From Nemertoderma westbladi (taxonomy: Eukaryota; Animalia; Xenacoelomorpha): a stretch of DNA of 64,000 bases. Shown piece by piece: positions 7,731 to 63,193 of the stretch. Within the stretch, counting starts at the first letter, position 1, and the number at the start of each line of letters is the position of its first letter. The position numbers and the translations under genes were made by a program. Location of the stretch: the NCBI GenBank assembly GCA_032718475.1, contig JAUCBJ010002985.1, positions 37,533 to 101,532 of the forward strand, read 5' to 3'. Below the pieces are notes generated by a model. It made no database searches, was not told the origin of the DNA, and saw nothing but the letters and a program-made list of their open reading frames with translations.

Positions 7731-7732
7731 GT

Positions 7733-9995: not shown

Positions 9996-10209
9996 CACCC
10001 TTGCGAGCAGCATCGCTGCCAGCCTCGCAGCCAGCCAGCCTCGCGGCACGCAGTTAGCCTCGCAGCCAACCAGTCAGCCAGCCAGCCACACAGCTACTGC
10101 CGGCTAGGCACGCAGTCAGCCTGTGAGAGTCATACTTATTCAAACGAGGTTAGTTTTCCCTAACTACCGATAGATTGATTGAAAAATAATAATGTTTAAT
10201 TTTCACCTT

Positions 10210-10769
10210 CTAATCACCAATATATTCTACACCTAAAGTCACAACACTAAACATTAAGAAATAATTAACCAGTTTACTAAATATAGGGTAATAAATGTGA
10301 AATTTGCTAGGTGAACACATTAAAGTACATTTACCGGTATGAAAGCAGCAAATGACTACGGTATTATTTATTCTTATTTTGCAATTATTAAAAATTTCAG
10401 GTTCATATATAACTTGAAGTTATTAGCACATTATCAAAGACAACATAAAACCCGGTATTGTTTATCAATAACCTATAGACTACAGACTTAATACTAAAAA
10501 TATAAGTACATAAATTAACAGATTTTAAAATCAAATTAATACTAGTTTTATCAAATATATGCTTTTTTACTTTTTGGAAATTATACTTACTACCTAATAA
10601 TGTAATACGACCATTTTTAAATATTAATAATGTGGCACCAAATATTTTATATATAAACTGATTTGGTTTGAGTATGTGTTTACCAGATAATTGATTTTTT
10701 TAATTCTTTCAAATTAATCGCTGACACTTGCTGGCAACTTACATTCTTATTAACTATCTGATAGTTCAT
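10210..10769 (-). pseudogene. TBP-like gene of element 1 (several frameshifts)
   Basis: Manual translation gives MNYQIVNKNVSC..INLKELK, ATLLIFKNGRITLLG, YEPEIFNNCKIR and VICCFHTGKCTLMCSP, homologous to 50895-51446. Confidence 0.8.
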
Positions 10770-15160: not shown

Positions 15161-16204
15161 TCAATCTGATACTGCTTTTATATGTTCCTTATTGTAATCT
15201 GCTACCTCTTCACTTGCTTTTGTAACTTTTATTTTCTTTGTAGGTATAGAATCATTGTTGGGAATGGAAGATGTTTGAGATGTAGATCTGCGCTTTCTAT
15301 CACTCGATGTCTCTTCGATGTATGTCTTTGGATTAAATGTAGATGAAACTACTTCTGGAAATGACTTATTAACCTTAAACTTCCAAGTTGGTTGATATAG
15401 AATCGCGAAACCGTCTGCTATATCAGTTGATGAAACCTTTAACATCATATCGTAGAGAAACTCTATATGAGGTATGTCTTTATCGTAATGTAACTGTAAA
15501 TATTTGCTTTCCTTGTCTGTAATAATTACTTTTTTTTCTTGTACATTTATTTTTACTTTAAGTCGGTTAGATAAAGCTTTATCGCCCGTATCTAGCTCTG
15601 AAAAGACACCTTCGTTACTAATTTCATAATTCCATTCATACCACAATGAATTTACTTCCGATGCTGTTAAGTTAAACCCATTATAATACCTAAGACCAAT
15701 AGCATCAGAATATCTAGCTGAAATCTCCCATAGTCCCATATAAGTCGTTCCTTTATATTTGCTTACAAATCCAACAAAAGATGGGTTGGTTAAATTAACA
15801 ACAGAACACTGATTTATTATTTCGAGTGGTGGTGATAACAATTCTAATATTTCTGTCTTACTCTGAAGCAATAAATTAATGAGTGATTTGTTTAGAATTT
15901 GACATTTGCCTTGCATCTGAATATATACGTTTTCAGTAATAACACAGGTGGAAATATTTAACTTTCCTCTTGTAAATTCTATATTAGGATAAATATTACC
16001 TCTTGAAACTGGTGATTCCTTTTGTCGGTTGATTAATATTTCTAAGACGTCTAGAAGGTAGAGTGTATCCTGGTAAGAGAAGCACGTTGTTACATTGCTA
16101 TCGCTTGAGTGTAATATAAAGTACTTGCCATAAACAATACTACAGGTATATTTATTACATATAAATTTCCAAGTATTGCTTGAAGTTTTTTTAAATAAAT
16201 CCAT
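15161..16204 (-). CDS. Putative PC4-like repeat protein (ssDNA-binding/coactivator fold) with basic C-terminal NLS-like tail
   Basis: FVSKYKGTTYMGLWEI...GFNLTASEV resembles the PC4 V..FKG...IDIR....GISL..EQW pattern. Homologue at 45598-46662 aligns from the Met at 16204. Tail PTKKIKV. Confidence 0.6.
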   Translation of the reverse strand: MDLFKKTSSNTWKFICNKYTCSIVYGKYFILHSSDSNVTTCFSYQDTLYLLDVLEILINRQKESPVSRGNIYPNIEFTRGKLNISTCVITENVYIQMQGKCQILNKSLINLLLQSKTEILELLSPPLEIINQCSVVNLTNPSFVGFVSKYKGTTYMGLWEISARYSDAIGLRYYNGFNLTASEVNSLWYEWNYEISNEGVFSELDTGDKALSNRLKVKINVQEKKVIITDKESKYLQLHYDKDIPHIEFLYDMMLKVSSTDIADGFAILYQPTWKFKVNKSFPEVVSSTFNPKTYIEETSSDRKRRSTSQTSSIPNNDSIPTKKIKVTKASEEVADYNKEHIKAVSD

Positions 16205-25311: not shown

Positions 25312-25320
25312 TAGTAGTAG

Positions 25321-44434: not shown

Positions 44435-44892
44435 AGTAGTAGGAGAAGCAGTGTCCCCCTCATAGTCCTCCCTAGCTTGGGCTATGGGCATTCCATTCGG
44501 AGGCAATTAAAAAATTCCAAATTCCGGTGCTAAATTGCGGTGCGCGCCATATGTCACCATCGGCAGTTGCCATCAACCAATCGTAGCGTAGCCTAACCTC
44601 GCGATGCCCGCCTTACTAGACTACTGACTAACTACTAACCCTAATGTTATTCACCTTTTCGCCACGTTACCACCACCACCACCACGCTACCACCACTGTA
44701 TACTGTATATAGTGACGACAACGACGACGTGGCCATCTACACGCATCATGCATATACCCTCCCTCGATATTATATATTATATTATATCGATTGCCAACTC
44801 AACGACTGCTGTCGCCAAACCAACAAACCAACCAACCAGCCAGTATGATACATGAAATTCCGCCACACGTCAACTACGAGTATACAAGCATT
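44435..44892 (+). repeat. Left terminal inverted repeat of element 2 (~450 bp)
   Basis: Reverse complement of 62751-63193 with scattered mismatches and a small indel; (AGT)n terminus. Confidence 0.95.
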
Positions 44893-45597
44893 TCCATAGT
44901 AGTTACTCATCCTAACCGATCCCTCAGCATCTGTGTCATATTGAAAGGCTACTACTAACATTATACTGTGCGTTTTTATTATAATTATTGATTATTATTA
45001 CGCACGCACAACCCAATGATTCATATTCTTTCACATATTTCCTATCCACGCAACCATTCATCCACATTGCAACCCATCTCTTTTCTTATTCGTCGATGAT
45101 TATGCCACATCCCATCTCTTCTACGTTGATTATGCCACATCCACACGTATTCAGAAATTTATATATAACTGAATGTTTTTGTTAAAATTCATCACTTGTA
45201 ATCTTCATGGTAATATATTGATACCATATCTAATTTTTTGTTCTCACTCTGAAATTGTGTTATTTCCTTAATAATTTCTACATTATCTTACTCGTTGTAT
45301 ATTCGTTGGTCGGAAACACTCGAATAAATGATACTGATTCCCACATTGGGTTTCTAAACGTAATTATGTAACTCAAAGGAAATCTCGTTTGGATGTGCGG
45401 GAGAATTTTTAGTATCGATGAATATATTAATCAAAGACGACTAGCAAAAACTTATATTGAAACTGTTTCAATATAAGTTTTTGCTAGTTGTCTTTGATTA
45501 ATACAATTTTAGAGTGAGAACTATGGTGTCAATTTATTACAGCGATACGGTTTAAAATTTATCACTTGTAATATTTTTCGTATTTATTATTATTATT

Positions 45598-46662
45598 ATG
45601 GCCTTAACGCAAAAAACCGGAGCAACAAATAGCTGGAAATTTACTTACAATAAATATACTTGTACCGCCGTTCACAGCAAGTATTTTATTGTGGAATCTC
45701 AGGAGGACAACGAATCAATTTGTTTTTCCCATCAAGATACCCGCTATTTGCTAGACATTCTAGAAACAACAACCAACAACCAACATCAATCCAGACCAGC
45801 AATTATACCAGGTAGGATATATGCCGCTCTTCGTTTTGCGCGAGGAAATTTGAATATTTCTATCAACCCCACATCGGGTGATGTTTACGTTCAGAAACAA
45901 GGCAAATGTAAAGTCCTCAACAAAGCTTTTACTGAAGTTCTAATTCAATACAGAGGGAAATTATTGCAATTTCTCTCTCCACCGCTAGAGATTATTAGCG
46001 ATCAATTCTACATTGAATTATCAAATCCAGAGTTTATTGGATTTGTAACAGCTTTTAAAGGAACCAACTATGTTGACTTATGGAAAATCAGCGTCAGATA
46101 CGCTGATAGTGTTGGTTTTAACTATTATACGGGTTTCAATTTGTCAAATCAGGAACTAACCGTTTTGTTGCGAGAGTGGGACACTCAAATTGATGAACCA
46201 GACAAGCATCTTTTTGATAAAAATATCATTCAATTATCAGACCGTCTCAAAATGATTAAAACCAATAATAAAAAAATTATTATCACCAACACCGATAATT
46301 CTACTGAAGTAGGAGCAGGTGGAAATTCTATTGAGTTGCATTACTTGAATGATAAAGCCCATATTAGTTTTCTCAAAGAGGCTATGGATGGCGTTTCTCT
46401 TATTGAAGCCAATGTAGATGGTTTTGTCCTTTTGGATAAACCTAAAGCATTCGTAGAGATCCCATCACCTAATCCGGATGTTGAAGAGAGTTGCTCTCAA
46501 CCGCAACAGGTCTTTCGTGAAATATTACCTCGGAAGCCAAGATCATCGAGTAAATTTACCAACGCATCACCTGCAAAGAAACAGAAAGTTGCTGTTAACC
46601 CAGCTCCAGTAGATCTAGTTACTAATTCTCCATGGAAACCAGATTATTATCCTAACATGTAA
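45598..46662 (+). CDS. Putative PC4-like repeat protein with NLS-like tail
   Basis: FYIELSN..FIGFVTAFKGTNYVDLWKI...GFNLSNQELTVL matches the PC4 signature. Tail PAKKQKV. Confidence 0.65.
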   Translation: MALTQKTGATNSWKFTYNKYTCTAVHSKYFIVESQEDNESICFSHQDTRYLLDILETTTNNQHQSRPAIIPGRIYAALRFARGNLNISINPTSGDVYVQKQGKCKVLNKAFTEVLIQYRGKLLQFLSPPLEIISDQFYIELSNPEFIGFVTAFKGTNYVDLWKISVRYADSVGFNYYTGFNLSNQELTVLLREWDTQIDEPDKHLFDKNIIQLSDRLKMIKTNNKKIIITNTDNSTEVGAGGNSIELHYLNDKAHISFLKEAMDGVSLIEANVDGFVLLDKPKAFVEIPSPNPDVEESCSQPQQVFREILPRKPRSSSKFTNASPAKKQKVAVNPAPVDLVTNSPWKPDYYPNM

Positions 46663-46705
46663 ACCTGATCATAAGTTAAACTCTTTGAGGTTTCCAATAC
46701 CCATA

Positions 46706-46760
46706 GGTGATTGGTGTTTGGTGATTGGTTTAAAATTATTTCACTCGCTAGCATATAAAT
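46706..46760 (+). promoter_or_regulatory. Putative polB promoter (two inverted CCAAT boxes + TATA-like box)
   Basis: gtgattggt twice, then catataaat ~100 bp before ATG 46859. Element 1 has the same arrangement at ~14775-14812 on the minus strand. Confidence 0.45.
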
Positions 46761-46858
46761 GTTTAGATATAGTCAATATCATTTCATTTCATTTTATTTT
46801 AATCTTTGGAGATATTTTATTATTATTATTATTATTATTTATCTAAACAAACTTCAGC

Positions 46859-49800
46859 ATGGATAAAATAACAATATGTTGTTCATTCTGTCATATGAAT
46901 GTAACTAGACATAATTATTTACGCCACCTACGGTCACATTTTGAAGGTTATTCTTGTTTTAAGTGTCACGTCGTGACTTCATGCAGCGAAATTTGTAAAC
47001 GACATGAATCAACTACTGGTTGTAAAGAAATGGAGTTCCGTACCTATCAATTGACTTGTTCTACCTGTAATAAAGAGTATACATATGAGAATTATTTACG
47101 ACACGATTGTCACTTGAAATGTTACTACACAAGAAAGCGTAAATTTTCGCAACATAAAAATATATTATCCAGAAAAAAATTAAGGGTGGCTCTTGGTACA
47201 TGCGCAACAATTTTTACGCGGGAACAAGAAGCTCACGATAATCGTCTTGAAATTTATGTCCACGACCTCCCAACTTCTAGAGATTATCCCGATGTAGAAA
47301 CAGCATTAACGCAAATTCGAGGTAATATTCTTCAGTTAATATTAGATAGATTGAAAGAAATGAATGTTCTTAGACTGTGGTTAGGTCTAAATGTATTAAT
47401 GTACAGATCACATTTTTCAGAAGGCGAGCAATTGGAAACTTTTTATTTTAATTCTTCCGGTGGTGCTATTAATACTGTAGATTCATCACAAAGTTTTGAC
47501 ACATGGTTTGAGTATGTGGTGGAAAATATATTACAAAAAATAGCCATCTTTAACACACGTGGTTCAGGGTGGCGTATTAAATCTTTATTAAGGGTTGAAA
47601 TTAAATTAGCTGAATCTAAGTGTAGGTCGTTACTATATAAGGGGCATGGATATATGGAATTACCTAAGGCTCTATCAGGTAAAAATTGTACAATAAATAT
47701 ACAAACGGCTGATAATGACTGTTTCAAATGGGCTATTATAACCGCAAAATTTGGTAGCAAAGTGAAAAACAACAAACAGCTTACTTCGTCGTACAAAAAT
47801 TATATGAGTCATTTCATTTTTGACAACGGGAAAAATGATTATCCAACAGAGTGGCAGTTAGCGATTAAACTTTTTGAAAAACAAAATTCAAAATATATAA
47901 TTAATTTACTATGTTGGAATAACGACAACAAACGCACCCCTGTATCTATATTAAGACAACCTCCGTTTAGTAAAATTACACCTGATAAACAGTTATTAAA
48001 TATATTACTTGTAGTAAAAAATAACAATGTACCTAAACTGAATCATTATGTTAGCATAACTAACTTGAATCGATTGCTGAATACGAGAGCTCTTCATATC
48101 GGGAATAGGAAATATTGTGAAAGGTGTTTGGCTCATTTTTTTCGAGCGGAAGTTCTTCATCGACACCGTCTCGCATGCTACCAAGGAAGAAGTCAACGAG
48201 AGAAACTACCTAATAAAAAAAGAACACACATTAGTTTTACAAATTTAGATAGAACCTTAGCCCCATTGTTTGTCACCTACTTTGATATAGAATGTATCTT
48301 ACAACCTTCAGTTAATAATCAAATTATACAGGAGCATATACCGTGTGCTGTGAGTTATTTAATTGTTCCCAATACTGAATTAATTGATGCTCCAAAATGT
48401 CATTTGAAAACATTCGTAAAGTCAAATAATAATAATTGTATTCAAGATTTCTTAGATTCATTATATACTGATTTAACTGAATTATGTTGTTGGTCAGAAA
48501 TATACACTCATAAAACTATGTCATTTACTAATATTGATTTTGTAAATTTTGAACAAGCAAAATTTTGTTTCTATTGTAATGTTACTTTAAATAATAATAT
48601 AGGGAAAAACAGACATCATTCACATATTACAGGTAAATATATTGCGGCAGCCTGTAATAGTTGTAACCGAAGTTTATCATTGAAACGATACCTGTATGTA
48701 CTTTGCGGGCATAATTCCAGTAATTATGATATACATTGTATATTACAAACCGGATTTAGAGATAAGAAATACACAGATTGGGATATAAAGGTTATACCGA
48801 GAAATACAGAACGATATATTTAACTGAGTGCATTTATCCCAATTAAAAACACTTCTAAGAAAATTGAGTTACGTTTCTTAGACACATATCAATTTTTAAG
48901 CTTTTCTTTAAGTAATTTAGTTGAGTGTTCAACAAAGGATGTGGCGAGTCATGATAAAAGCTCAATTTTACCTATTACTCTACAAGAAATGAAATATTTT
49001 TATCCAAACTTGAATAACTCAACAATTAAACGGAAAGGAGTATTTCCATACGAGTACTTGACAGATATAAATAAATTTAATGATACTGGTTTGCCGTCTA
49101 TAAATAATTTTTTTAGTAACTTGAGTCAAAAAACATGCACAATTGAAGATTATAGGTTTGCGGAATTATCATGGGTACAATTCGACTGTATGAATCTCAA
49201 AGATTATCTTTTAGCCTATTTAAAACTCGATGTTTGTTTGCTTGCTGATATATTTGAGAATTTTAGGAATGTTTGTAAACAAAATTACGATTTAGAAGCG
49301 GTTTTTTACTGTAGTATCGCGTCATTTACCTATGATTGCGCACTAAAATATAATAAATGTAAAATAGAATTAATAAAGGATTATCAGACATATAGAGATT
49401 TTGAAAAATCAATTAGGGGTGGTGTTTCATTTTGTCGAAAGCATTATATAGAATCAAATATACCAGGAACAAGTACATATGATTCTACTAAGGAAGAATG
49501 CCATATTTTTAATATTGATTTCAACTCTTTATATTCTGGGAATTTAAGTAAAAAACTACCCACCTCACAATTCAAAGAAGTAAGTATTAAACACTTAGAG
49601 AATGCAATTCCAGAAAAACTAATCGAGTACTTGGTAGATTTAGACATTGATGGATCTACTGGATATTTTTTAATATGTGATTTAAATTATCCCAAAGCTA
49701 TTCACGATCAAACATTACAATTACCGTTAGCTCCAGAGCATTTAAGTATAAATGAATCAATGCTTTCGCCTTATATGAGGGAACAATTTAATAACTTATC

Positions 49801-50917
49801 GATACAAAGAGGTACCTCCTGTAAATATAGGATGCCTATACCAAAACTCTTGCTGACGCAATTTGATAAAGAATTTTATCATTTACATTTGAAACTGTTA
49901 AAATTTTATATAAAACATGGATTAATTGTTACTAAACTACATAAATTATATTCTTTTCAACAAGAATTTGTATTTAAAAATTACATCGATTTTAATATTA
50001 ATCAAAGGCGATTAGCAAAAAGTTACATTGAAACAGCTGTTGCGAAATTGCTTAATAATTCGTTATTTGGTAAATCAATAGAAAAGATAAGAGATCGATG
50101 TAACTTTCGTATCGCAAATAGCAATGATAAATGCGACCAATTGGTGAATCGTATTAATCATGAACAATTTATAATATACAATAATACATTATCGGGACAT
50201 TTATTAGTGAAAGACTCTGTAACTCTCGATAAGCCTATATTTATTGGTAGCACTATGTTGGACTTGGCTAAATTGGATATGTATGAGCTGTTTTACAATA
50301 AACTGCTACCTATTGAGAAAGAATTAAACTGCCGTATTGAAATTGCTGCATCAGATACGGACTCTTTAATAGGATGTTACTATAATACATCGCAGAATAA
50401 TTTTTTAAAAGCATTAATTAAAAATAATATTTTAGATACATCCAATTACCCTAAGGATCACCCTCTCTACAGCGATAAAAATAAATCGAGACTTTATTAC
50501 TGTAAAGATGAACTAGCTTCATGTGAAATTAAACAAGCAGTATTTTTAAGACCAAAATTATATTCAATTTTGGAATGGAATAACAAAAATATTTGTAGAG
50601 CAAAAGGTATTACAAGAGCTGTTGTGGAAACGAATATTACACATGAAGAATATTTAAAAGCATATAACTCAAATGAAGAAATAAAAAAAAACATATACAG
50701 ATTTCAATCTAAATTACATCGTATTTATACCTTAAAGCAAAATAAATTTGCACTCAGTAGCTTTGATGATAAACTTTATTGGGTTAATAAAAATCAATCA
50801 CTTCCTTGGGGGCACTATAAAACAAACCTCAAAAAACCTATAAAAATATCAAATATACCAATTTATGAAGAACCAAAAGACGATGGTGTTGATGATGAAT
50901 TATCAAATAGTAAATAA
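46859..50917 (+). pseudogene. polB: Protein-primed DNA polymerase B of element 2 (1352 codons, single nonsense TAA at 48821)
   Basis: The two track ORFs are in the same frame: RYI*LSAFIP versus RYISLSMHIP in element 1. All pPolB motifs are present. Confidence 0.95.
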
Positions 50918-51446
50918 AAATATAAGTTGTAAGCAGATCATTTATGGACTTAATTTAAAAGAATTAAAAAATCAATTGAATGGTAAAATTGTACTCAAAC
51001 CTAATCAGTTTATATATAAGGTATTTGGTGCAACCATATTAATGTTTACAAATGGACGAATAACAATTCTCGGTAGAAAATATAATTTTAATAAAGTGAA
51101 AAAGCATATATTCGAAAAAACAAACATTAATTTGATTTTTAAATCAATCAATTTGTGTACTTATATTTTTAGTATCGATACCGTAATTTATAGGTTACTT
51201 ATAAACAATATCGGGTTTTATGTTATATTTGATAATGTTAAACTAGAAATTTCAAACGAGCCCGAAATATTCAATAACTGTAAAGTCAGAATAAATAATA
51301 TTGTTGTTGTTTGCTGCTTCTACACTGGTAAATGTACATTAATGTGTTCCCCGTTTAAATTTCATATATATTATCCTATATTCAACAAACTGGTTAATAA
51401 TTTATTATTGTTTGGTGCGAGGGTTTTTGATGTAAAATATAATTAG
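50895..51446 (+). CDS. TATA-box-binding protein (TBP)-like protein overlapping the polB stop
   Basis: Two TBP-type repeats: YQIVNKNISC..LNLKEL...ATILMFTNGRITILG and NEPEIFN...VVCCFYTGKCTL (TBP has LDLK.IA, TALIFSSGKMVCTG, YEPELFPGL, LLIFVSGKVVLTG). About 183 aa. Confidence 0.75.
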   Translation: MNYQIVNKNISCKQIIYGLNLKELKNQLNGKIVLKPNQFIYKVFGATILMFTNGRITILGRKYNFNKVKKHIFEKTNINLIFKSINLCTYIFSIDTVIYRLLINNIGFYVIFDNVKLEISNEPEIFNNCKVRINNIVVVCCFYTGKCTLMCSPFKFHIYYPIFNKLVNNLLLFGARVFDVKYN

Positions 51447-52207
51447 TGCGAGTGAAATTTATTGTTGTTGTTGTTGCTGTTTGGTGGTGGAGATTTTTAC
51501 TGTAAAATATATATTAAATTTGGCTGGAAAAAATTTATGAATATTTTTTTTTTTAAATCAACAACTAGTTGGGGGAAATTAACTAACTAACTAACTTCAG
51601 TAGAGCGATTGCTTGTAACACTCGAGTAGGCATAGTTTACTCAGCGGCCGTAGCTAGCTAGCTAGCTAACTAAGCATCGCAGCTCACGAGTGAGCTACAA
51701 TAGCGCATCTGTTACTTATGAGTGTGCGTGTGTGCGGCAGGCAACGCTAAGCTCGGTGAGAAAAGATTAGGGCTATGTGCTGGTATTCATAGTCAAAGAC
51801 GATGCCCTCCTATCTGTTACTAGTCTGTATACCGGTACATATTATTAAAACATCAGCTATGCATCTCCCTACATTCAGAATAGAACAACGAACAGAGCAT
51901 ATATCGCTAACTAATCTGCATGGGAAAGGTTTATGTTGTGCATTTTGTTAACTATGAGAATTTTGTAATCTAAACATCTGCGACCCTCTACAAAAATATA
52001 TATAAACTCAATTTTTCTAACAGTGAACTATAATTTTGTTTCCCTACCGTAAAATAAAAAAATAAATACCGGTATAGACTAGGCCTAACTTATCTTCATA
52101 TTTGAAAAAAAAAAAACTAACCTCAACAAACTTCAGTTCCAACAATCCTTCTCTATCAATCAACCAACATCCGTTCCGACATCCAACATCCAACACCAAC
52201 AATCAAG

Positions 52208-52561
52208 ATGGCATTTTCTTTCATTGAAAATAGCGGCGACTGTTTATTAAAATTTGATGTTGATGGAGACGACCTTTATTTCACATCATTAAATGTAACT
52301 GAATTACATTTAAAAAATAACAACGGTGAAATAACAATAATGATTAAAAATAAAACCAGCGGCAGCCAAGGTCACCAAACCATATTGACGACCAATAAAA
52401 ACTTCAATTTAAACGTTAGAGTTCAACCTGGAGAAGCGCATCAGATAAGTTTGGACAATTATAGTAGGGGAGAGAACTGGGATGAACATGAAGATATAGC
52501 AGCAGCTCCAGTTCCAACACCAACTCTACTACTTCCATCTGATCCGAGAATACGTCAGTAG
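52208..52561 (+). CDS. Hypothetical 117-aa protein unique to element 2
   Basis: ATG in good context (aagATGG) after CAA-rich leader and upstream TATA-like sequence at ~51997; beta-strand-like pattern; no counterpart seen in element 1. Confidence 0.5.
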   Translation: MAFSFIENSGDCLLKFDVDGDDLYFTSLNVTELHLKNNNGEITIMIKNKTSGSQGHQTILTTNKNFNLNVRVQPGEAHQISLDNYSRGENWDEHEDIAAAPVPTPTLLLPSDPRIRQ

Positions 52562-52886
52562 ACTCGTACAGCAAGTAGACTCATAGGCCTATATAATTAG
52601 TCATGTGTGTTACCGGTATCAGTAGGTTTTTGTATTGTATTGTATATTTTATATTTTATATCTAATTAAAAAAAAGCGAATACATAAATAAACTAACTAT
52701 GTTTTATAGGCCTATAGGCCTATAACATGAAGTGAATGAATGAACTTGGGCGCGGTGAATTTTATATATTGCTAGCCACACCTTGTATCAATGTGCTAGG
52801 CGGCTTTCAGTTGAGGAGTAGTGATTAGGCCTATATGCCTAACCGAATGAAGGTGCGCCTAGTGTGAGTTCTAAAGGTTAACCGTA

Positions 52887-53100
52887 AACCATATTGGGTC
52901 AACATTCGAAAAAGGGGGCCGCATAAAGTTAACTATAGCTGTATAGGCTTGCCTATGCAACAGTAGTAGCCCACAGTAATGTAGATTAGACCAACCATAT
53001 TGGGTCAACATTCGAAAAAGGGGGCCGCATAAAGTTAACTATAGCTGTATAGGCTTGCCTATGCAACAGTAGTAGCCCACAGTAATGTAGATTAGACCAA
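52887..53100. repeat. Perfect tandem duplication of 106 bp
   Basis: aaccatattgggtcaacattcg...gtagattagacc starts at 52887 and again at 52993. Confidence 0.95.
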
Positions 53101-53604
53101 TTAAAGTTGTAAACAGAAAATTGGAAGCATTCAAGTGTAATAGCCTAATCCTTAAATCGAAGAAACCTGCATGCCCTTGCTCTATCCAAGTATACAGTTA
53201 CAAGAGTGCTACAGTGCCGGTACCAGTAGGCCTATTGTTTGGTGGGCCCCTCTAATGCTGCATTCACGAACCCCCCATGTCGAGTTAATTTAATTTTATT
53301 ATTAGTAAGTAACGCTAAAGCGCTGTGGCTGCTGTCGGTGCACTCTAGAAGGGGGTGCCATTCTGCCGTTCTACAGTTTAGCGTTGTTGCTATATGTCTG
53401 TATGTGTGTAAAGTCAGCTACTGGTAGTTAAACTCTGATACAACAGCCGGCTACCGGTAGGTACGGTGTGTTTGTGAGTGTAAACTTAAGCCCTACACCT
53501 TCAGTCAAACTGAGATATAAAAAAATAGATTTTAATGTTTTTATTATTTTTATTGACATTAAAACAATTATATTATCCCATCACATTACATACTTAGAGT
53601 AAAC

Positions 53605-54210
53605 CTACTGTACGAGTACATCTTCCACCGCAGTTATTTCTTTCTGTTTATCATCAGTGTCAGTTAAACGCTTTCTCACGAAAAATCGTTTCAATTCAAA
53701 CCCACCGACACGTTTTGCAGAGCAGTACCGCAGACAGTTATCCCTTGTGTTTAAGTGGAAAGCACATTTATTTTCTAGTGTAATAAATTGATCGTGGAAG
53801 CGACAGGGGGTTAAATAATTGTAATATCGCTGATATTGATATATCCACAATTTCTCCATCGAATTTGGTGCGAGAACATCAAGTTGGGAAACTAATATTG
53901 CCCGCTTCATCAACCCAAATACATGTATATTTTTTTTATATTTTAAATGTCTCTTCATGTACTTTTTAAAGTCATCTTGCGAAATGTCACCGTAATCCCA
54001 AGGTAAATGCGAAGTCATGTCCCGTAAATTGTTTATATGAGCTTTATCTAATGCTGATAACTTAATATTAGGTGGACCTTTAATTAAAAACGTCTTTACA
54101 TTAGTTTTGGTGTAATTAGAATCGAATATAGCAAATTCTTTAAATACTACCGGATATTCCTTATTGTCTATCGTATAATATTGAAAATCAACAAAAATAA
54201 TATTATCCAT
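53605..54210 (-). CDS. DEDD/DnaQ-like protein (element 2 copy)
   Basis: Close homologue of 8217-8819. Confidence 0.6.
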   Translation of the reverse strand: MDNIIFVDFQYYTIDNKEYPVVFKEFAIFDSNYTKTNVKTFLIKGPPNIKLSALDKAHINNLRDMTSHLPWDYGDISQDDFKKYMKRHLKYKKNIHVFGLMKRAILVSQLDVLAPNSMEKLWIYQYQRYYNYLTPCRFHDQFITLENKCAFHLNTRDNCLRYCSAKRVGGFELKRFFVRKRLTDTDDKQKEITAVEDVLVQ

Positions 54211-54241
54211 TTTATCTGATAAACAAAAGTTAAATGATTAA

Positions 54242-54694
54242 TTACAACGCTTGTTGGTTTATTTTATAATAATTAACAAGCCATTTATATAATATTATTT
54301 CATTTATTTCCACATTATTTGTAAACGCTCTCATTGGATAGTTTATATGAATTCGATTTACCAAGTAATAAAGACAGTATAATCCACATGTGGTCCTCCT
54401 GGGGTCTTGAAATTGTTTCCGGGTAGTACGCCATCTTGCTGAATTTTTCTCAAGCCATTCTTCGATACATCTGTTTGGATATTTTGGTCCGAATGAATTA
54501 AATAATTCAGCCTCATTATCTCGTATATATATAGCAATCCAATGAACCCCGGGTAGATGCTGTTTATCGGTGTTTACCATTAACCCATAATCTCTCCGTT
54601 TATTATTATCTAATTTAGGTAATTTGTTAGATGGAAACGCTCCCAAATAGTGACCACCCACTGGAAACATATCAAGGTCCTCTGTAGATAACAT
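54242..54694 (-). CDS. Adenain-like protease (element 2; catalytic Asp changed to Asn)
   Basis: PGVHW, FNSFG (FDSFG in element 1), CGLYC. Confidence 0.9.
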   Translation of the reverse strand: MLSTEDLDMFPVGGHYLGAFPSNKLPKLDNNKRRDYGLMVNTDKQHLPGVHWIAIYIRDNEAELFNSFGPKYPNRCIEEWLEKNSARWRTTRKQFQDPRRTTCGLYCLYYLVNRIHINYPMRAFTNNVEINEIILYKWLVNYYKINQQAL

Positions 54695-54696
54695 AC

Positions 54697-55949
54697 TTAA
54701 TCGATATGTATTTCTTTCCTGCTATTTAAACTTAATGATTGATCATAAATATTAAAAACAATTACATTTATGGTCTCAACCAACGGTTCGGCAAATCTTA
54801 ATTTTAATTGGCCGTTAGTATATATCGATGGTTGCGGATCTCTAACATAGCCGTCGGCGGTTAGGTCCCAGGATATGAGTGGGCAATTACCTAAGTAGGT
54901 TTCATGGTGTATTTTATTACCTCCATAACCGTTAATATATGTATTAATGTTTTTCATTAATTGAGTATACTCAAAAATGTATGTTCCATCTGTAAAATTA
55001 GGCTCGTATATTACACCACCTACTGGAAGACCGTCTACAATCAGTTCCGCGCGTCTAAGGTTAAAATGTTCAAATTTCAAGGGGTTACTAATTCATTCTC
55101 CCGAATATTATGCATTATTTGTTATAAAACCGATAATAACTAATTTGGGTTTTTTACCATCAAATATGTTTGTTTGGATGTAATTTGTGGTTTGTGCGGG
55201 AATAGTAAATATTGTAACCTCCTTTTTTTGGAATTGATATTCAATATCGTAACTCTCTAAACCTTTTAGGTGACTGCTTTCTATTACGGGATTAACCTCC
55301 ATTCTAGGGATTAGGATCTTTACTTCATCTAATTCTAACCGAAGATTTGTCACAGCGTTTGTGTTTGGAGTGATTTTAAAAATAAACGAATTTGATACTT
55401 TTCTAAAATGCATTCTTAAATCATACCCGGGTTGTATTATTTTAGTTTCAGTATCAAAATCAATTGTCAATCCACTTACAAATTGCATTTGTTTACTAAA
55501 GGCATCGCCAATAGGATGCGCACCAGGATCAATTTCATTTCCGTGTTCGGATAAAGGCTGATGAAAGCCACCCGCCCCCAGTAGCCCATTTTTAGATTCG
55601 TATGTTGTAAATAGTAAATTGGATTGTAGAAATAATGGTTATTGCTATTTTCAACCTGCTTCTCATTAAGGTCTATTTTAATATCACTCCACATAGTTCC
55701 AGCGGGGTAATTCAACATATAAATATGGGAGTTTTCAAGTCGTCTATCCCACCGTACAGTACATTTTGTAATTAATAACGCATCTTGCAGTTTCGTATAG
55801 AATTCATTGGATCTTGGTACAAGGAACGTGACTTCCCTAGACTCACTTCTGAGATTGGATACCGGGTAAATTGTTTCATAATGCTTTGCTTTAAATTCAG
55901 TCTGTATTGGCTGTGTAGAAAATAAATCTAATTCCTTAATAATTGACAT
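54697..55949 (-). pseudogene. Major capsid protein (element 2), broken into three ORFs
   Basis: Fragments 55476-55949, 55108-55488 and 54697-55080 align with 6480-7730. Confidence 0.9.
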
Positions 55950-55951
55950 TA

Positions 55952-56804
55952 TTAAAAAATACTTTTTTCGCAGTGTTTCAGTTTGCCTTTTATTTTTCTC
56001 TTTTTACTACGTCGATGATGTATGTTCATAGACATTGGTCTAGTAGGTCGCTTTAAGTCTTTTTCTACAACCGATCTTGTGGATGGTTTCATTTTATTTA
56101 ATGCTTTATTAATAACCGTATTAGCCTGCTGATGTAAGACCCGCTTACCTTTTGGTATTACGTGTTGTCTCATAAATTTTGTGGTAAAAGGTAAAGGTTA
56201 GGTTCCACCTTGGTGTAGTGGTTGCATTGAATTCACATCTCCTGAAGGTCGTGGGTTCGATCCTCACATGGGCCAGGGCAGTTTTCGTTTCGGCACGAAT
56301 GCTTTAAAGGGACCAGCCAGGGCGCATCTCTGCCTTGCATCCTTAAGTGGTAGCTAAATGAGTACTGGAGTTTCCTCTGGGGAGTAAAGTTCTGGGGGGA
56401 CCGCACTGGAAATAAGTCGTCAGACTTTGTGCGTAATCCCTGGCCTAGTGGCCGAAGAAAATTTACTTTTTTACTTTTTTACTTTTTTAAAGCTTTTTGT
56501 AACACTTTTTTTTTGCTAATGGCTTACCAAATTTTTTCAATGTAGATAAAGCGTCTGTAAATATACCTTCCCCGTGTTGATTTGTTCGCAACATACCTCT
56601 ACGATAACGTTGAAAACGATGTTGTTTTAAGTTTGGACCAAATGCACCAATTTGTTGTCCGTAAGGGTCAATATATGAACCACCTCGAAAAACAGGAACT
56701 TGCGTCGAGCCTCTCATACTTCTACCACCTTTAAAAACAGCAAGATTAGAGTCTGCACCACCATATTGAGGTTCACTGTATCTTTGAAATAAATCGGAAT
56801 CCAT
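55952..56804 (-). pseudogene. Cupiennin-like core protein (element 2), disrupted by a SINE and an A-run frameshift
   Basis: The two halves match 5917-6477 on either side of the insertion. Confidence 0.88.
56197..56487 (+). mobile_element. tRNA-derived SINE with Nin/Deu-like central domain
   Basis: A box tggtgtagtgg, B box ggttcgatcc, core ctctgccttgcatcctt..gtggtagctaaatgagtac, (ttactttt)n tail, TSD taaag (56192-56196 and 56488-56492). The site is empty in element 1. Confidence 0.88.
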
Positions 56805-56805
56805 T

Positions 56806-57652
56806 TTAATTTATTTTTTTAAAGTTTAAGGTAATTGAAGTTGTGCCGTATTCAAAATTCAAATCTTTTCCTTCTTTGTCTGTTATTTCAATATGAATGT
56901 ATGTTATCTTATATGATTTTTTCACAGGGATATAATGAATTGTATCCTTGACAAATTCTTTATTTATTACACTACCATATTTCACGTCATCAGGTATTGC
57001 GACACGACGAAGTAAGGCTAAACCAAAGTCATTAATATATTCATTTTCAATTATATTAGTAGTCACGTACATGTTCGATTTAGGTTCTGGAATAGAATTG
57101 GGTGGTTGAGGGCATAAAAATACCATCTGGTAAGCTTTTTCTTCATTTCCGATAACCTTTATTAAATAACCCTTTATATTATTTTTTGTCTTCAAAATAA
57201 TTTTAAAATTTGGATTTAAATTCGCGCCGAGATTATTTTCAGTAATTCCAAAATAATAGGCTAATTGTTGACCTATAAATAACTCTCGTACAGTTTTCCC
57301 TAAAATAAATTGCAACCTATTTTGCTGAGTATTTTCAACTATTTGTAATTTATCTTTCAACGCCCCAGTGTTAAAATAATCTATAATGTCATTGATACTG
57401 TAGAACAAACCGGATGGAAGTGTATCCTCAAAATTTTTTTTCCCTTTTTTTTAATAAAATAACATTCTCTACATTGTTATACATGGACGGTAATGTGGCT
57501 AAGTAAAATATACTTTTTATACCTACCACCCAGTTTTCGTTTGGATTTATAGGTAAGGCGCCGTGGAAATTGATCTGATAATTACTACCAGTATTACGAG
57601 GAAAATCAATTGGACAGGAGTTACTTGGTAGTCTAACGTAGAACTCATCCAT
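56806..57652 (-). pseudogene. Minor capsid protein (penton) 2 of element 2, frameshifted in an A-run
   Basis: MDEFYVRLPSNS... (57428-57652) plus the 200-aa ORF 56806-57408. Confidence 0.82.
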
Positions 57653-58520
57653 CACCACCACCACTGCGTATTAACTTAAGTGTTATAACAGTGCGACCAC
57701 CGTTGAAATTAATTAATTCACCTTGGCCGTCACATAAAGTAATTAAGATTGTTTTTAGTTTTTTATTCAACAACGGGTAATAGCAAATGCTCTCATATTC
57801 GTGATTAATATATTTTCGATTTAATTGTGTTAAAGGACAGGTTCTTAAGAGCGGAGCTAAAGCGTCACCAACAAATGAGCTCTTAATAATATCTGTATAT
57901 ATGAAGATAGTATCTTTATTACGAGTAATATTTGTGGGAGCCGGAAAATCTAAAATCCCAATTTCCGAAATTTTTGGTCCACTATAATTTAAAATTAATA
58001 TCGGCTGTTCTATATTGCTTAATTCATCCACTGTAGTGGTACTGTATATATCCCAATTCGGAATACTCAGATGATTCTGATCCAATAACGGTTTTAAGCC
58101 TAGAATTTGAATTAAATCACCGCGTAGACTTAATTGTATTTTTTTCAACTTTTTAGGAAATTTAAATTTAATTCTAGAATTATTTGTATTAAAAATGAAT
58201 TCGAAATCTCTATATTTCGCTTCAGAATTAAACAGTTTATTTATATCATCAATAATGACTTGAATAGAGCTATGCATACCAGGAAATAAATTGTATAATT
58301 TGGCATCTTTTGCATCTACCCCGATTGACAGCGAGATTTGAGTTTGCAGAGTAATATTACTGTATGTTGCTTGATATTGTATCTCTGCGAGTCCAATTTT
58401 AGAGTTTGGACCAATATATAATTCTTCGGCTAAATCAACAGTAAACTCGCTAGGGTTATTATTGGGGTAAGTGTTTAATGAGCTATCTGAAAGTAGAGTG
58501 ATATATGTATCTACAGCCAT
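57645..58520 (-). CDS. Minor capsid protein (penton) 1 of element 2
   Basis: Near-identical to 4203-5075. Confidence 0.88.
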   Translation of the reverse strand: MAVDTYITLLSDSSLNTYPNNNPSEFTVDLAEELYIGPNSKIGLAEIQYQATYSNITLQTQISLSIGVDAKDAKLYNLFPGMHSSIQVIIDDINKLFNSEAKYRDFEFIFNTNNSRIKFKFPKKLKKIQLSLRGDLIQILGLKPLLDQNHLSIPNWDIYSTTTVDELSNIEQPILILNYSGPKISEIGILDFPAPTNITRNKDTIFIYTDIIKSSFVGDALAPLLRTCPLTQLNRKYINHEYESICYYPLLNKKLKTILITLCDGQGELINFNGGRTVITLKLIRSGGGDG

Positions 58521-58785
58521 TATTATTATTATTTAAGCTCTCTCTACTTGACTCCTTTGTACATACAGTACAGTACAGTACGGTATAATGTTAAATAATA
58601 GACATCTGTGACCACGTTCATTCCCGCTTCGCTTCTACAGTATATGTGAGGGATCAATATTTTACTGGCTTTATTTAAAGCGAATGAACTATAGTATAGT
58701 AATATCATTTGAGTTAATATTGATTGATTAATTAATTACGGACATATGTGACCAAAATGAATTAATATACAGTATAAACCTAAAC

Positions 58786-59875
58786 TTATTGAATATGCTG
58801 TACCCACGACTGTTTCTTGGATCCGATGAATCGGACTAAATATTCTTTTTTCCCATTGCGTACACGTTCTTTAAGTTTGCCAATATTTTTGTCAATCGGA
58901 AGATAAATATTACTATTCGGGTAGACCTTTTGGAGTTCATATGAATAAAATGAGCCGTTTATTATAGCTCCAGTGCTGTCCTTAATATCGAACATTACCG
59001 CTGGTACTCTATCCAATCTGACCCGATGAATAATAAATAATTCACGTGTCCATTGTTCTCGATAGCCTTTAGCAAAAGCAGTACGAGCGATAGATAATCG
59101 TACTGTATCTCCAACTTTAAATTTTATTTTCTTGTGATTAATCTGTCTATATTTCCCATATAATCTATTCATTAATTCAGTTTCATTAAATTTATTAACT
59201 TCAATGGGTGTCATTTGTATTGTCCTATGATATGACCTATTATAAGCATAAATGAGCTTCGGTAAAATTTTTATCCAAACATTATTTCCCCTTTGCGTGA
59301 AAATTTTGAACATCTTTGTTTTTAATGTTCTATTGAATCTCTCGACAATAGCCGCCTTATTCACAGAATACATTACATAATACTGTATACCAATAGTATC
59401 TAAATATTTCCTTACAGATTTATTTAGAAACTCAGACCCTTGATCAGTTGCGATTCTGTTTGGTTTTCCTTTCTGGAATATTTTTTGCAATATACTAATA
59501 ATTTCAATACCCTTTTTTGTTTTCATACCATAGGCAAAAGCAAGCCGGCTAAAGGCATCAATACATGTTAATATATAGTTATAATTATTATTTTGCGATT
59601 TATATTGCTGCATATCCACCAGATCTATCATATATATATCTTTTAAGCCTCCCGTAAATATTTTAGATGTTGGATAATGATGTCTACGTGGTGCGTGAAG
59701 GGAGTATGTCTTTTGCCCGCTCAACCATTTCTGGGCTTGAGCTGGTTTGATGTTTGCAGCTTTTGCTAATTTTGCGATACTTGCAAAACCCGCAGGGGAT
59801 GAAGGATCTAAATAAATTCTTAACAGTTTTTTTGTCTAAGGTTCGGCTTAAAATCGGTTTCATCTTGCGTGGCAT
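58786..59875 (-). pseudogene. rve integrase of element 2, frameshifted near the N-terminus (A-run at ~59830)
   Basis: MPRKMKPILSRTLDKK then shifts frame; the remainder is near-identical to 2868-3956. Confidence 0.92.
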
Positions 59876-59926
59876 CTTTTCGACAACCGCAAGTAATATG
59901 TATATTCAAATCTCTTATAAAGGGCA

Positions 59927-60097
59927 TCACCGTAAAAACAACTGAAATTTTTTTATTATTTTTTTTGAAGTTGATGTTTTAAAGGGTTTTCTTTTTGTAG
60001 TATTTACTCTAGGTATATCTTGAGGTTTTAAATCAGTAGCTAACGGTTTACTCGATACTAAATATAATTTTCTAAATGTTACTCCTGTTTTAACCAT
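59927..60097 (-). CDS. Small basic 56-aa ORF (element 2 copy)
   Basis: Same length and 3' translation as 2646-2816. Confidence 0.6.
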   Translation of the reverse strand: MVKTGVTFRKLYLVSSKPLATDLKPQDIPRVNTTKRKPFKTSTSKKIIKKFQLFLR

Positions 60098-60099
60098 TA

Positions 60100-60482
60100 T
60101 TACCGTCCACGGTTAATTTTTTTCGCAATAGCCGCTCCAGCGGTGGCGGCACCGGCACTCGCGGCGAGTTTCGCACCAATGCCGAGTAAGGGTATTAGAA
60201 ACGGTAGTATGCCTCCAGATTGATTGCTTAACTTTTTTCTATAACTTGATATATTTTTTGTTTTACGGTTGAGTGATTTCAATACCTTTTTATATCGGCG
60301 AATATTTCTAAATGAATGAGGTTCAATTGTACGTTACCTTTTAGAACATTTAATGCAGTATTTACAATGAGCCGTATTAATTCATTACTCGCGGTATGGT
60401 TAATAAAATAAGTTTTTTGTTGAGGGGTAGCGCTGCGTAGAAATTCCAGTTCGTTACGATATTTCTGCACAAGTCTATTCAT
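60100..60482 (-). pseudogene. pX/gasderminX-like protein (element 2), 1-nt deletion
   Basis: Split into 60279-60482 and 60100-60282. Confidence 0.82.
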
Positions 60483-60519
60483 TGTTGCAACATTATTGAA
60501 AATTGTTACAAAATATTAA

Positions 60520-61201
60520 TTATTTATTATTATTATTATTATTATTTTCGCTACGTTTATAGTCAATGTAATTTTTAATGTAACAATTATGATTACGAAA
60601 TATATCCGATCTAAATCTTAAATGTTCGGGTGTTTCCTGTCGTAAATCAATTAAGAAATGCGAAAATGGTTCAATAGTCGCATCTTGATAGGAATCTACT
60701 AAAAATTTGGTCTGCCCTGGTAACATCTGCTTCGCGAAATTTAAAACCGATAAACTGTCTTCGTGGATTTTTCATTAATACTAAAGTATGGCTATTAATT
60801 GATCTTGTGCGGTTATGCTGCCCACCGTAAAACATGTTTTGCGTTATAAAACAAATAAATATATTGGAATGATGAGCTACCTTAGTAAACAATACAGTTA
60901 AAGCTGTACTGGACTCAGTTTCTTTTAAAAAATCATCTATAATTAATAAATCTCGACTATTCACTAAACTATCTATATTTTCTGGCAAACCTTTGTAAAG
61001 GTGAGTAATACCAGGAATAGTTGGGGGATTGCTCCCGTAACAATACAATACTCGCAAGGGGGCTTCGTTGAAACAACCATTCTTGTGTTTAATTAAATTG
61101 CACACAAATGTTGACTTTCCAGAACCAGATGGGCCAGAAATTATCATACTCGTTCCCATTTGAAAGTTTAAATTATATGGACCTGAATTAAAGTCAGCCA
61201 T
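60520..61201 (-). pseudogene. Packaging ATPase (element 2), 1-nt insertion at ~60760
   Basis: Split into 60671-61201 and 60520-60726; Walker A/B retained. Confidence 0.9.
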
Positions 61202-61427
61202 TTATTATTATTATTAAGATATATCAACAATACAATATAATATAATATAAATATCAATATCAATAAACCATCACCATTACTATATTGTATATAACAATAA
61301 TTGAGGCAACTACAATATTAGAGTACTGTATATTTAATTAACATATGACACAACTACAGTATGTGACGCTCGCTGCAACAAAAGGTGCTATTTCCAATTA
61401 TAGTATAGACTCATTTTCAATGTAATT

Positions 61428-61877
61428 TCAAGCATGGTGAGCATCTTTATACGCGAAATAATGATAGGTAACATCGGCGGTTTGGAAATCACTTCCTGAG
61501 AATTTCGCGCTAATGATTTTTTTATGTTCGCTGCTAAAAAAATAAGGAATATAGTAGCAACACCGTCGTACTACATTTCTATAAAAAATATTCTCCAATA
61601 TTGTAAATAAATCTCCTGGATCATTACTTTCCGCAGAAATATAAGTTATATTGCGAAGCTCTTTCCAATAATAGGGTTGGTATCTTGCCAACTTTATATT
61701 AAACTTAGATATGGGTGCGCGACAAATAGGACAAATTTTAGAACAATAATTATTCATTTCGGAATATTGTACAATACATTGTACGCAAGTTGCATGTTTA
61801 TTTTCACATTTATAATAATCTCGATGTTGCAATAACTTAGAATAGCAAACTGGACATTTTTCATTTAAAATATCCAT
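61428..61877 (-). CDS. C3HC4 RING-finger protein (putative E3 ligase), intact
   Basis: CPVC-x11-CENKHATCVQC-x13-CPICR. Confidence 0.85.
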   Translation of the reverse strand: MDILNEKCPVCYSKLLQHRDYYKCENKHATCVQCIVQYSEMNNYCSKICPICRAPISKFNIKLARYQPYYWKELRNITYISAESNDPGDLFTILENIFYRNVVRRCCYYIPYFFSSEHKKIISAKFSGSDFQTADVTYHYFAYKDAHHA

Positions 61878-62064
61878 TTTCCAAATTTTAAAGTAAATTG
61901 AAAATAATTACCTCAATACACAACAACAAACAAATCTGTTATACTGTATATGCAATTACTACTACAATTTTCGATTATTTAAAATTTGATGTTTTTTTTT
62001 TCATAATTAAAAACATCAAAATTTTATAAATAATCATAAAATATTTGTAATATAGTGGGAAAAG

Positions 62065-62508
62065 TCAAGAATCAATGATATTATCAACATATTCAACATT
62101 ATCTGTTGATTCTTCAGTTTCGACAAAGGATTCTTTTGAAATCATTACAATAAAGAAAGACATAATTTCGTAGGGGCTATGCCGATTTAGCCGTATTTCA
62201 AACTTTTCACCAGCTTCGTTGTATTGTGTAATAACAATTAACCCCTCTATCATGGATAATAGTAAGATATTGATTAATTTTCCCTCATGCTCAACTTTCA
62301 GGTTGTAATCTAAGAGATGAATACTATTATCAGAAGCATCAATATCAATTGAGCTTAAAACTTTCCTGGCTTTTTCAGAAAACTCAATTTTATATTTATC
62401 ATCTCCCCGACGGTAAATTGTATAATCAATAACAATATAGGCTTCACCATCTTCTGCAAAAAATGAATGCCTTACTATTGGCATAACCATATCGGAATCA
62501 GAAGACAT
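62065..62508 (-). CDS. Hypothetical 147-aa protein (element 2 copy)
   Basis: 4 aa differences from 266-709. Confidence 0.75.
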   Translation of the reverse strand: MSSDSDMVMPIVRHSFFAEDGEAYIVIDYTIYRRGDDKYKIEFSEKARKVLSSIDIDASDNSIHLLDYNLKVEHEGKLINILLLSMIEGLIVITQYNEAGEKFEIRLNRHSPYEIMSFFIVMISKESFVETEESTDNVEYVDNIIDS

Positions 62509-62750
62509 TATTTAATTTATTTTATTGTAAATCAAACAAACAAAGTAAAAACTTTTAAACTAAAACCATTACAAATGATTAATTGTGATTAAAGCAAGAG
62601 ATTATATATAAGATATTTTCAAAAATAATACAGGTCTTAAACTGAGAAATAGCCTAAATTCGGTTTATTGATTGGTTGATTAGCCGGTAGGGAACTACTG
62701 TATAATCAAAAATTATTTGGTTCTGCGTAATAATAATAATAATAATCACT

Positions 62751-63193
62751 AATGCTCGTATACGCGTAGCTGGAACGTGGCGGAATTTCATGTATCATAC
62801 TGGCTGGTTGGTTGGTTTGTTGGTTTGGCGACAGCAGTCGAGGAGTTGGCAATCGATATAATATAATATATAATATGCGTGATGCGTGTAGATGGCCACG
62901 TCGTTGTTGTCGTCACCATATACAGTATACAGTGGTGGTAGCATGGTGGTGGTGGTGGTAACGTGGCGAAAAGGTGAATAACATTAGGGTTAGTAGTTAG
63001 TCAGTAGTCGAGTAAGCCGGGCATCGCGAGGTTAGGCTACGCTATGATTGGTTGATGGCAACTGCCAATGGTGACATATGGCGCGCACCGCAATTTAGCA
63101 CCGGAATTTGGCATTTTTTAATTGCCTCCGAATGGAATGCCCATAGCCCAAGCTAGGGAGGACTATGAGGGGGACACTGCTTCTCCTACTACT
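62751..63193 (-). repeat. Right terminal inverted repeat of element 2
   Basis: Reverse complement of 44435-44892; ends ...CCTACTACT followed by TSD AACGGT. Confidence 0.95.

What the first reader, a model, noticed from the sequence alone, without database searches (positions are those of the whole stretch)
45598..51446. PC4-like / pPolB / TBP-like cassette: a Polinton carrying its own basal-transcription-factor homologues
Seen: in both elements the same three genes are co-oriented, in the same order, on the arm opposite the virion genes, and they are retained despite strong divergence between the copies. Established: TBP and PC4 are both Pol II pre-initiation components; the Polinton core set has no RNA polymerase; viral TBPs are best known from large nucleocytoviruses. 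Inference: this early arm may redirect host polymerase to the late (virion) genes and/or supply origin-binding and ssDNA-binding factors for protein-primed replication. I do not recall this cassette being characterised in Polintons, but novelty needs a literature and database check.
Basis: partly seen in the sequence, partly recalled or inferred. Interest (0 to 1): 0.85.

Follow-up and report, generated by a model that had tools for sequence, protein, structure and literature searches.

The report
Maverick's own TBP, separate DNA-binder
A virus-like Maverick/Polinton transposon in an animal genome carries a conserved, divergent TATA-binding-protein gene that likely steers the host's transcription machinery to the element's own genes, plus a gene with a predicted PC4/Pur-alpha-type fold that more likely helps copy its DNA, so the two are probably not one transcription cassette.

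Summary
The layout is real: two inverted Maverick copies carry the order PC4-fold gene, pPolB, TBP-like gene, opposite the virion arm. The TBP-like gene (50895-51446) is supported by Pfam (E 2.9e-4, below cut-off), ESM Atlas (0.95), HHalign (90.7%) and dN/dS 0.17 between copies. It keeps three of four DNA-wedging phenylalanines and both TFIIB-contact glutamates, while other DNA-reading positions differ; no TFIIB gene was found. The 45598 protein has no sequence link to PC4, but residues 7-127 are predicted to fold like Pur-alpha (Z 13.1). The cassette is not conserved: among 100 pPolB loci, TBP occurs once (L031, beside the ATPase, 5.5 kb from pPolB) and PC4 three times, never with TBP. L031 has a variant TATA word before 8 of 15 genes; no such word was found in this window's copies. 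Both labels already appear on adintovirus maps (Starrett 2021: 'TBP', 'MOSUB'), without characterisation in what I could read. This scan has reported Maverick TBPs in other genomes many times. Both copies here have broken pPolB genes. Verdict: new variant of a known kind; two likely separate functions.

The parts
44435..63193 (.). Maverick/Polinton element E2, 18.8 kb, TIRs about 44435-44892 and 62751-63193, 6-bp target duplication
45598..46662 (+). 354-aa protein; residues 7-127 predicted as a tandem (beta4-alpha)x2 PC4-like type I domain; rest not modelled
   Evidence: AF2 pLDDT about 70-80 in two blocks of the first 127 residues, under 50 from 128 on; Pur-alpha Z 13.1, rmsd 2.9, 120 aligned; adintovirus MOSUB E 6.8e-4; dN/dS 0.27 vs E1
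46859..50917 (+). protein-primed family B DNA polymerase, broken by an in-frame stop at 48821-48823
   Evidence: the E1 counterpart finds 2060 homologues at E<=1e-20, many carrying PF03175; dN/dS 0.17-0.26
50895..51446 (+). divergent two-lobed TBP-like protein, 183 aa, intact in E2
   Evidence: Pfam PF00352 E 2.9e-4 (ORF from 50865); Atlas 0.95, 29 of 30 hits TBP; HHalign 90.7%, E 1.3e-6; BLASTP to L031 TBP E 1e-7; dN/dS 0.17
53605..62508 (-). virion/integration arm: 201-aa ORF, protease, putative major and minor capsid genes (broken), integrase, packaging ATPase, RING protein
   Evidence: Peptidase_C5 E 4.9e-5, rve E 1.6e-10, Pox_A32 E 6e-4; matches to ORFs of other pPolB loci
15161..16204 (-). 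E1 copy of the PC4-fold gene, open frame, 41-44% aa identity to E2
10753..14616 (-). E1 pPolB, broken by in-frame stops
10222..10769 (-). E1 TBP-like gene, broken by two frameshifts; both large pieces hit PF00352 weakly

Best explanation
This Maverick carries a conserved divergent TBP gene that likely binds promoters of the element's own genes and likely recruits the host's TFIIB and RNA polymerase II, and a separate gene with a predicted PC4/Pur-alpha-type fold that likely binds the single strands displaced during protein-primed replication. Shown: gene layout, TBP homology, purifying selection, retained phenylalanines and glutamates, no conserved linkage. Predicted: the PC4-like fold. Inferred: DNA binding, altered specificity, TFIIB recruitment, the ssDNA-binding role, and that the two proteins do not act together.
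For: TBP; dN/dS 0.17 (bootstrap 0.10-0.28), equal to the polymerase core. With yeast numbering (offset 57), three alignment modes all place F116, F190, F207, E186 and E188 on F51, F126, F142, E122 and E124, and show changes at V122, T124, N159, P191 and V213. PMC7221094 section 11 names the two stirrup glutamates as the TFIIB contact and says most viral TBPs lose them and bring their own TFIIB; here they are kept and no TFIIB family hit was found in 30 ORFs or 66 short frames. The one TBP-bearing relative, L031, falls in the same pPolB clade (SH-aLRT 100, quick tree), has its TBP just before the ATPase, and has CATAAAC within 150 nt upstream of 8 of 15 genes (0.22 expected; 0 of 100 shuffles), 12 copies on the coding strand and 0 on the other. 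PC4 fold; recognisable PC4 genes sit in L017, L094 and L100, which show no TBP; a phage T5 PC4 homologue is cited as implicated in DNA replication (reference title in PMC7549692).
Against: No promoter word was found in this window's elements: exact 6-8-mers, one-mismatch 8-9-mers and canonical TATA boxes are all at chance level or borderline (P 0.05-0.64), and CATAAAC is absent from the stretches searched. The F99 position and the N69/V71 register are not kept in any alignment mode. The Pfam score is below the cut-off (21.1 vs 22.9) and the single-sequence model of the TBP was unusable (pLDDT 34). The TBP start overlaps the pPolB end, which fits a replication role. The promoter-word link rests on one relative; by raw density CATAAAC in L031 (0.63/kb) is close to L102 (0.60/kb), and 5 other loci of 36 also reached 0 of 100 shuffles, with pure A/T words. 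The window copies are a long, compositionally odd branch in an unfinished tree. Two thirds of the 45598 protein are unmodelled.
Confidence: 0.55

Rival explanations
1. The TBP-like protein is a replication factor: it would bend or open the AT-rich terminal origin for pPolB, with the PC4-fold protein as SSB, making the arm a pure replication module.
For: 23-nt overlap with the pPolB end, start kept in both copies; all three genes share one arm with its own divergence level; no promoter word in this element.
Against: In L031 the TBP is 5.5 kb from pPolB inside the virion block; the TFIIB-contact glutamates are kept in E2, E1 and L031; no TBP was found in the other 30 of 31 loci of 10 kb or more, so replication does not generally need it.
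Confidence: 0.2
2. One reading: the TBP and the PC4-like protein form one pre-initiation module that together would redirect Pol II to late genes.
For: Both folds are present and under purifying selection on the same arm in both copies.
Against: 0 of 100 other pPolB loci hold both; the 45598 protein has no sequence link to PF02229 or to a 43-sequence tandem-PC4 profile (HHalign 0.2%); its best folds are Pur-alpha, MRP and Whirly (Z 13.1-7.3) while MoSub1 scores 4.3.
Confidence: 0.13
3. The TBP-like protein is a decoy that would bind host TFIIB or host promoters and damp host transcription rather than activate element genes.
For: Glutamates kept while the DNA-reading face has drifted and one phenylalanine position is lost; no target word found here.
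Against: Three phenylalanines kept; strand-specific upstream word in the TBP-bearing relative.
Confidence: 0.1

Closest known systems
Mavericks/Polintons (adintoviruses, MELD viruses); PMC8502044 (passages, section 10, supplement part 1), PMC8097293 (passages)
   Same: TIRs, pPolB, integrase, packaging ATPase, protease; the Fig. 5 legend lists 'TBP' and Fig. S2 lists 'MOSUB' and 'MAEL' on the Bos-associated insect adintovirus map; that MOSUB protein is a fold match to the 45598 model.
   Different: TBP and PC4 are not among the eight core genes. In the text I could read the labels come with no analysis; which virus bears TBP is in a figure that is not held. Here both genes flank pPolB.
Cellular TBP (PF00352; PDB 1cdw, 1rm1)
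   Same: Two lobes, F116/F190/F207, stirrup E186/E188, both Gly-Lys/Arg turns.
   Different: About 25% identity to a canonical-type TBP; 3-4 residues shorter before F116, F99 and P191 not kept, several DNA-face changes; no N-terminal extension.
TBPs of large DNA viruses (PMC7221094, sections 7, 11, 12)
   Same: DNA-binding phenylalanine kept, rest divergent.
   Different: Those mostly lose the acidic stirrup pair and encode their own TFIIB; this 19-kb element keeps the pair and shows no TFIIB or RNA polymerase gene.
KSHV ORF24 late TBP mimic (PMC12529657, passages and section 15)
   Same: Works-like model: a viral TBP with an altered DNA face steering host Pol II to a variant TATA box.
   Different: ORF24 is a 752-aa multidomain protein that binds Pol II directly, lacks the TFIIB glutamates and needs five other viral factors; this is a bare 183-aa core.
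PC4-like superfamily, type I (Pur-alpha 3k44, MRP1/2 2gia, Whirly 3n1h; PMC7549692 passages)
   Same: Predicted beta4-alpha-linker-beta4-alpha domain in one chain.
   Different: 8-11% identity; 230 further residues unmodelled; nucleic-acid binding untested.

Membership tests
Maverick/Polinton | Terminal inverted repeats and 6-bp target duplication (the 6-bp length as a family trait is recalled) | tested here: met
   E2. E1: no matching repeat found at its in-window end.
Maverick/Polinton | Protein-primed PolB and retroviral-type integrase | tested here: met
   pPolB broken in both copies
Maverick/Polinton | Packaging ATPase and adenovirus-type protease | tested here: met
   Peptidase_C5 above cut-off; Pox_A32 below cut-off but E 1e-44 to ATPases of other pPolB loci
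Maverick/Polinton | Jelly-roll major and minor capsid proteins | tested here: inconclusive
   No Pfam hit; homologous ORFs in 10 and 7 other pPolB loci; fold not tested
TBP family (PF00352) | Two TBP lobes by profile | tested here: met
   Pfam below gathering score; no usable 3D model
TBP family (PF00352) | Four intercalating phenylalanines | tested here: inconclusive
   Three kept; F99 not in register, F39 lies two residues off in a shortened loop
TBP family (PF00352) | Acidic stirrup pair for TFIIB | tested here: met
   E122/E124 in E2; also in E1 and L031
TBP family (PF00352) | Binds a TATA-type box and nucleates initiation | not testable with these tools
   needs biochemistry
PC4-like superfamily (fold) | beta4-alpha repeats pairing into one domain | tested here: met
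   predicted, residues 7-127
PC4/Sub1 coactivator family (PF02229) | Sequence match to the PC4 C-terminal domain | tested here: not met
   no hit for the whole protein or four pieces; below shuffled controls with the tandem-PC4 profile; HHalign 0.2%
Conserved PC4-pPolB-TBP cassette | Same linkage in other Polintons | tested here: not met
   0 of 100 pPolB loci; many are short, and very divergent PC4 folds would be missed

The most novel reading that the evidence does not exclude
One clade of Mavericks runs the smallest known viral transcription switch: a bare TBP core with a rewired DNA-reading face and an intact TFIIB dock, which reads a clade- or element-specific TATA variant and borrows host TFIIB and Pol II to turn on virion genes, with no viral TFIIB or polymerase.
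Probability: 0.45. Interest if true: 0.72.

Novelty: new variant of a known kind. Interest (0 to 1): 0.45.

Why it matters
How Mavericks time their genes without an RNA polymerase or a helper virus is open. A 183-aa TBP that keeps the host-TFIIB dock but changes its DNA face gives a one-protein, directly testable answer and a natural orthogonal promoter-factor pair. The predicted PC4-type domain offers a candidate for the ssDNA-binding protein that strand-displacement replication is expected to need. This window adds one more divergent example, but it lacks the promoter evidence that its relative L031 shows.

Tried and rejected
Direct homologue searches: TBP-like protein, 0 hits among 103 candidates, only chance hits in PDB sequences, none in NCBIfam; 45598 protein, 0 hits in 1.84 billion representatives, Atlas at most 0.84 with unrelated families, no related viral loci. 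Single-sequence fold of the TBP unusable, so no fold search was run on it. pPolB single-sequence locus search empty; L031 TBP search gave no new locus. No whole genome held, so no genome-wide copy survey. TATACAGTA looked like a candidate promoter word (ATACAGTA 7 seen vs 0.53 expected in the virion arm) but was rejected: TACAGTA is as common in host flanks (11 in 9.8 kb vs 22 in 18.8 kb), several copies lie in coding sequence, and 2 of the 3 upstream copies are not kept in E1. Sequencing runs: no RNA holder listed; the contigs laid say nothing on expression. TBP with an archaeal TFIIB core: not folded, no verdict. Residues 138-200 of the 45598 protein resemble the PC4 chain printed by eye, but no statistic supports it and the model there is under pLDDT 50. 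Literature: ten searches found no paper analysing a Polinton TBP or PC4; term searches gave 0 for TBP/PC4 in PMC8097293, PMC11131425 and 10.64898/2026.06.19.733378. Subscription journals, figures, the slide-format supplements of PMC8502044, the cut part of its archive and bioRxiv supplements were not seen.

Full report
Observation. The window holds two inverted copies of one Maverick/Polinton family. E2 spans 44435-63193, with terminal inverted repeats 92.5% alike and an identical 6-bp target duplication. Its + strand carries 45598-46662, pPolB 46859-50917 and a TBP-like ORF at 50895-51446; integrase, ATPase, protease and putative capsid genes lie on the - strand. E1 has the same three genes in the same order. 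pPolB has an in-frame stop in E2 and stops in E1; E1's TBP-like gene has two frameshifts. The virion arms are 93-95% alike and this arm 63-78%, so these are relatives within one family and shared order alone says little. Thousands of varying contigs from runs of four studies lie on E2 (25,805 in X1), and a contig of run X4 bridges the pPolB-TBP junction, so the arrangement is not an assembly artefact.

The TBP-like gene. Pfam PF00352 matches at E 2.9e-4, just under the cut-off; both large E1 pieces also hit. The Atlas returns TBP clusters for 29 of 30 hits, best 0.95. HHalign against four TBPs gives 90.7%, and a three-sequence TBP profile ranks two window pieces directly after its own member among 12,407 six-frame pieces. 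Direct homologue searches were empty and a single-sequence model was unusable. Between E1 and E2 dN/dS is 0.17 over 157 codons (0.10-0.28), like the polymerase core. Using yeast numbering via and the DNA-contact table of PMC12529657 (section 15), three alignment modes agree that F116, F190, F207 and the stirrup glutamates E186/E188 are kept, that V122, T124, N159, P191 and V213 are changed, and that F99 and N69/V71 are not in register. That paper writes the glutamates as E184 and E188; by the offset they are 186 and 188. PMC7221094 (sections 7, 11, 12) reports that viral TBPs mostly lose this acidic pair and come with a viral TFIIB. Here the pair is kept, and no TFIIB family hit appeared in 30 ORFs or 66 short frames; a very divergent one could be missed. 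I infer a protein that still bends DNA, reads it differently and docks host TFIIB. A complex prediction gave no verdict.

The 45598 gene. It has no Pfam hit whole or in four pieces, no relative among 1.84 billion representatives, and does not match a 43-sequence tandem-PC4 profile better than shuffles, although a 37-sequence version of that profile finds human PC4 at E 1e-9. Folded from the two window copies, residues 7-127 reach pLDDT about 70-80 in two blocks, as two beta4-alpha repeats; the rest is under 50. Of 48,161 chains the best are Pur-alpha (Z 13.1, rmsd 2.9, 120 aligned), two cyanobacterial proteins (11.5, 11.2), MRP1/2 (8.4) and Whirly (7.5); MoSub1 scores 4.3. Foldseek agrees (PURA E 2.7e-4) and finds 'MOSUB' of Bos-associated insect adintovirus (E 6.8e-4). 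This is the type I PC4-like fold of ssDNA/RNA binders (PMC7549692, passages). dN/dS is 0.27 with near-saturated synonymous sites. That strand-displacement replication needs an ssDNA-binding protein is established knowledge, recalled; the role here is inferred.

Linkage elsewhere. Searches covered 1,095 ORFs by phmmer, 391 of them by Pfam and all six frames by profile. TBP occurs once, in L031 (PF00352 E 2e-15), directly before the ATPase and 5.5 kb from pPolB. PC4 occurs in L094 (E 1e-14), L100 and L017 (both below cut-off), never next to pPolB and never with TBP; L094 is only 7.6 kb. L031 shows no PC4, but a protein as divergent as the window's would escape. In a quick, unfinished tree of 41 of 77 pPolB rows the window copies group with L031, L027, L028, L030 and L036 (SH-aLRT 100); the other four are too short to show a TBP, and the window branch is long and compositionally flagged.

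Promoter words. Earlier scan notes suggested looking for a variant TATA box. L031 has CATAAAC upstream of 8 of 13 hand-picked genes and 8 of 15 automatically called genes, 0.22 expected, with 12 copies on the coding strand and none on the other. Of 36 loci tested, five others also beat all 100 shuffles, with pure A/T words enriched 4-8-fold rather than 36-fold; by raw density L031 is barely above L102. In the window's elements nothing passed: exact words, one-mismatch words and canonical TATA boxes were at chance or borderline, and TATACAGTA was rejected. The elements are about 68% A+T, which lowers power, but this is a result against my reading.

Prior knowledge. [quoted passage not shown] 5 legend (section 10 read; preprint passages) and 'MOSUB' and 'MAEL' on the Fig. 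S2 map; the figure itself and the slide supplements were not available. PMC8097293, PMC11131425 and the 2026 PLV preprint have no TBP or PC4 mention (term searches). 10.1101/2024.03.18.585575 (passages) covers pPolB domains and has no SSB mention. Ten library searches found no functional or comparative study of either gene. This scan has ten earlier notes on Maverick TBPs in other genomes, two with a TFIIB partner; they are unchecked leads, not support. One says its TBP lost partner surfaces, which differs from what I find for the TFIIB pair here.

Verdict. The genes are real and selected, the cassette is not a conserved unit. Most likely (0.55) the TBP is a promoter factor that borrows host TFIIB and Pol II and the PC4-fold protein is a replication ssDNA binder; rivals are a replication role for the TBP (0.2), a joint initiation module (0.13) and a decoy (0.1). 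New variant of a known kind, interest 0.45.

Noticed in passing
window 1-16300 versus 44435-63193: E1 looks mosaic: virion arm 93-95% alike to E2, replication arm 63-78%, switch near 8850/53570, and no match to E2's terminal repeat at its in-window end.
   Followed up: partly
window 45425-45503: 79-nt near-perfect palindrome just upstream of the 45598 gene; its arm is a 90% copy of pPolB 49995-50034. It could give a hairpin RNA against the polymerase gene; some other copies skip 45286-45982.
   Followed up: no
L031:14292-14597: 102-aa ORF directly upstream of the L031 TBP with a stretch that resembles a TFIIB zinc ribbon without its cysteines (recalled pattern); no Pfam hit at E<=1.
   Followed up: partly
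L031:13037-13486 and 17674-18138: Two paralogous 150-aa ORFs (E 3e-15) without a family; by eye possible OB-fold ssDNA-binding proteins, which would stand in for a PC4-type gene.
   Followed up: no
window 53605-54210 (-) and L031:11226-11687: 201-aa ORF after the protease, dN/dS 0.21; by eye an exonuclease-like protein matching the 'MAEL' label of PMC8502044 Fig. S2; weak match to L059.
   Followed up: no
window 26468-40877: 14.4-kb satellite of 318 copies of a 45-nt unit between the two elements; 24-28-nt arrays at 20571-23451 and 25319-25665 flank a reverse-transcriptase fragment at 24475-25311.
   Followed up: no
window 56196-56508: 311-nt insertion in E2's virion arm that contigs of runs X1 and X5 skip; SINE-like by eye, no tRNA called.
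   Followed up: no
window 52208-52561 and 52887-53100: 117-aa orphan ORF found in E2 but not E1, followed by an exact 106-nt tandem duplication.
   Followed up: no
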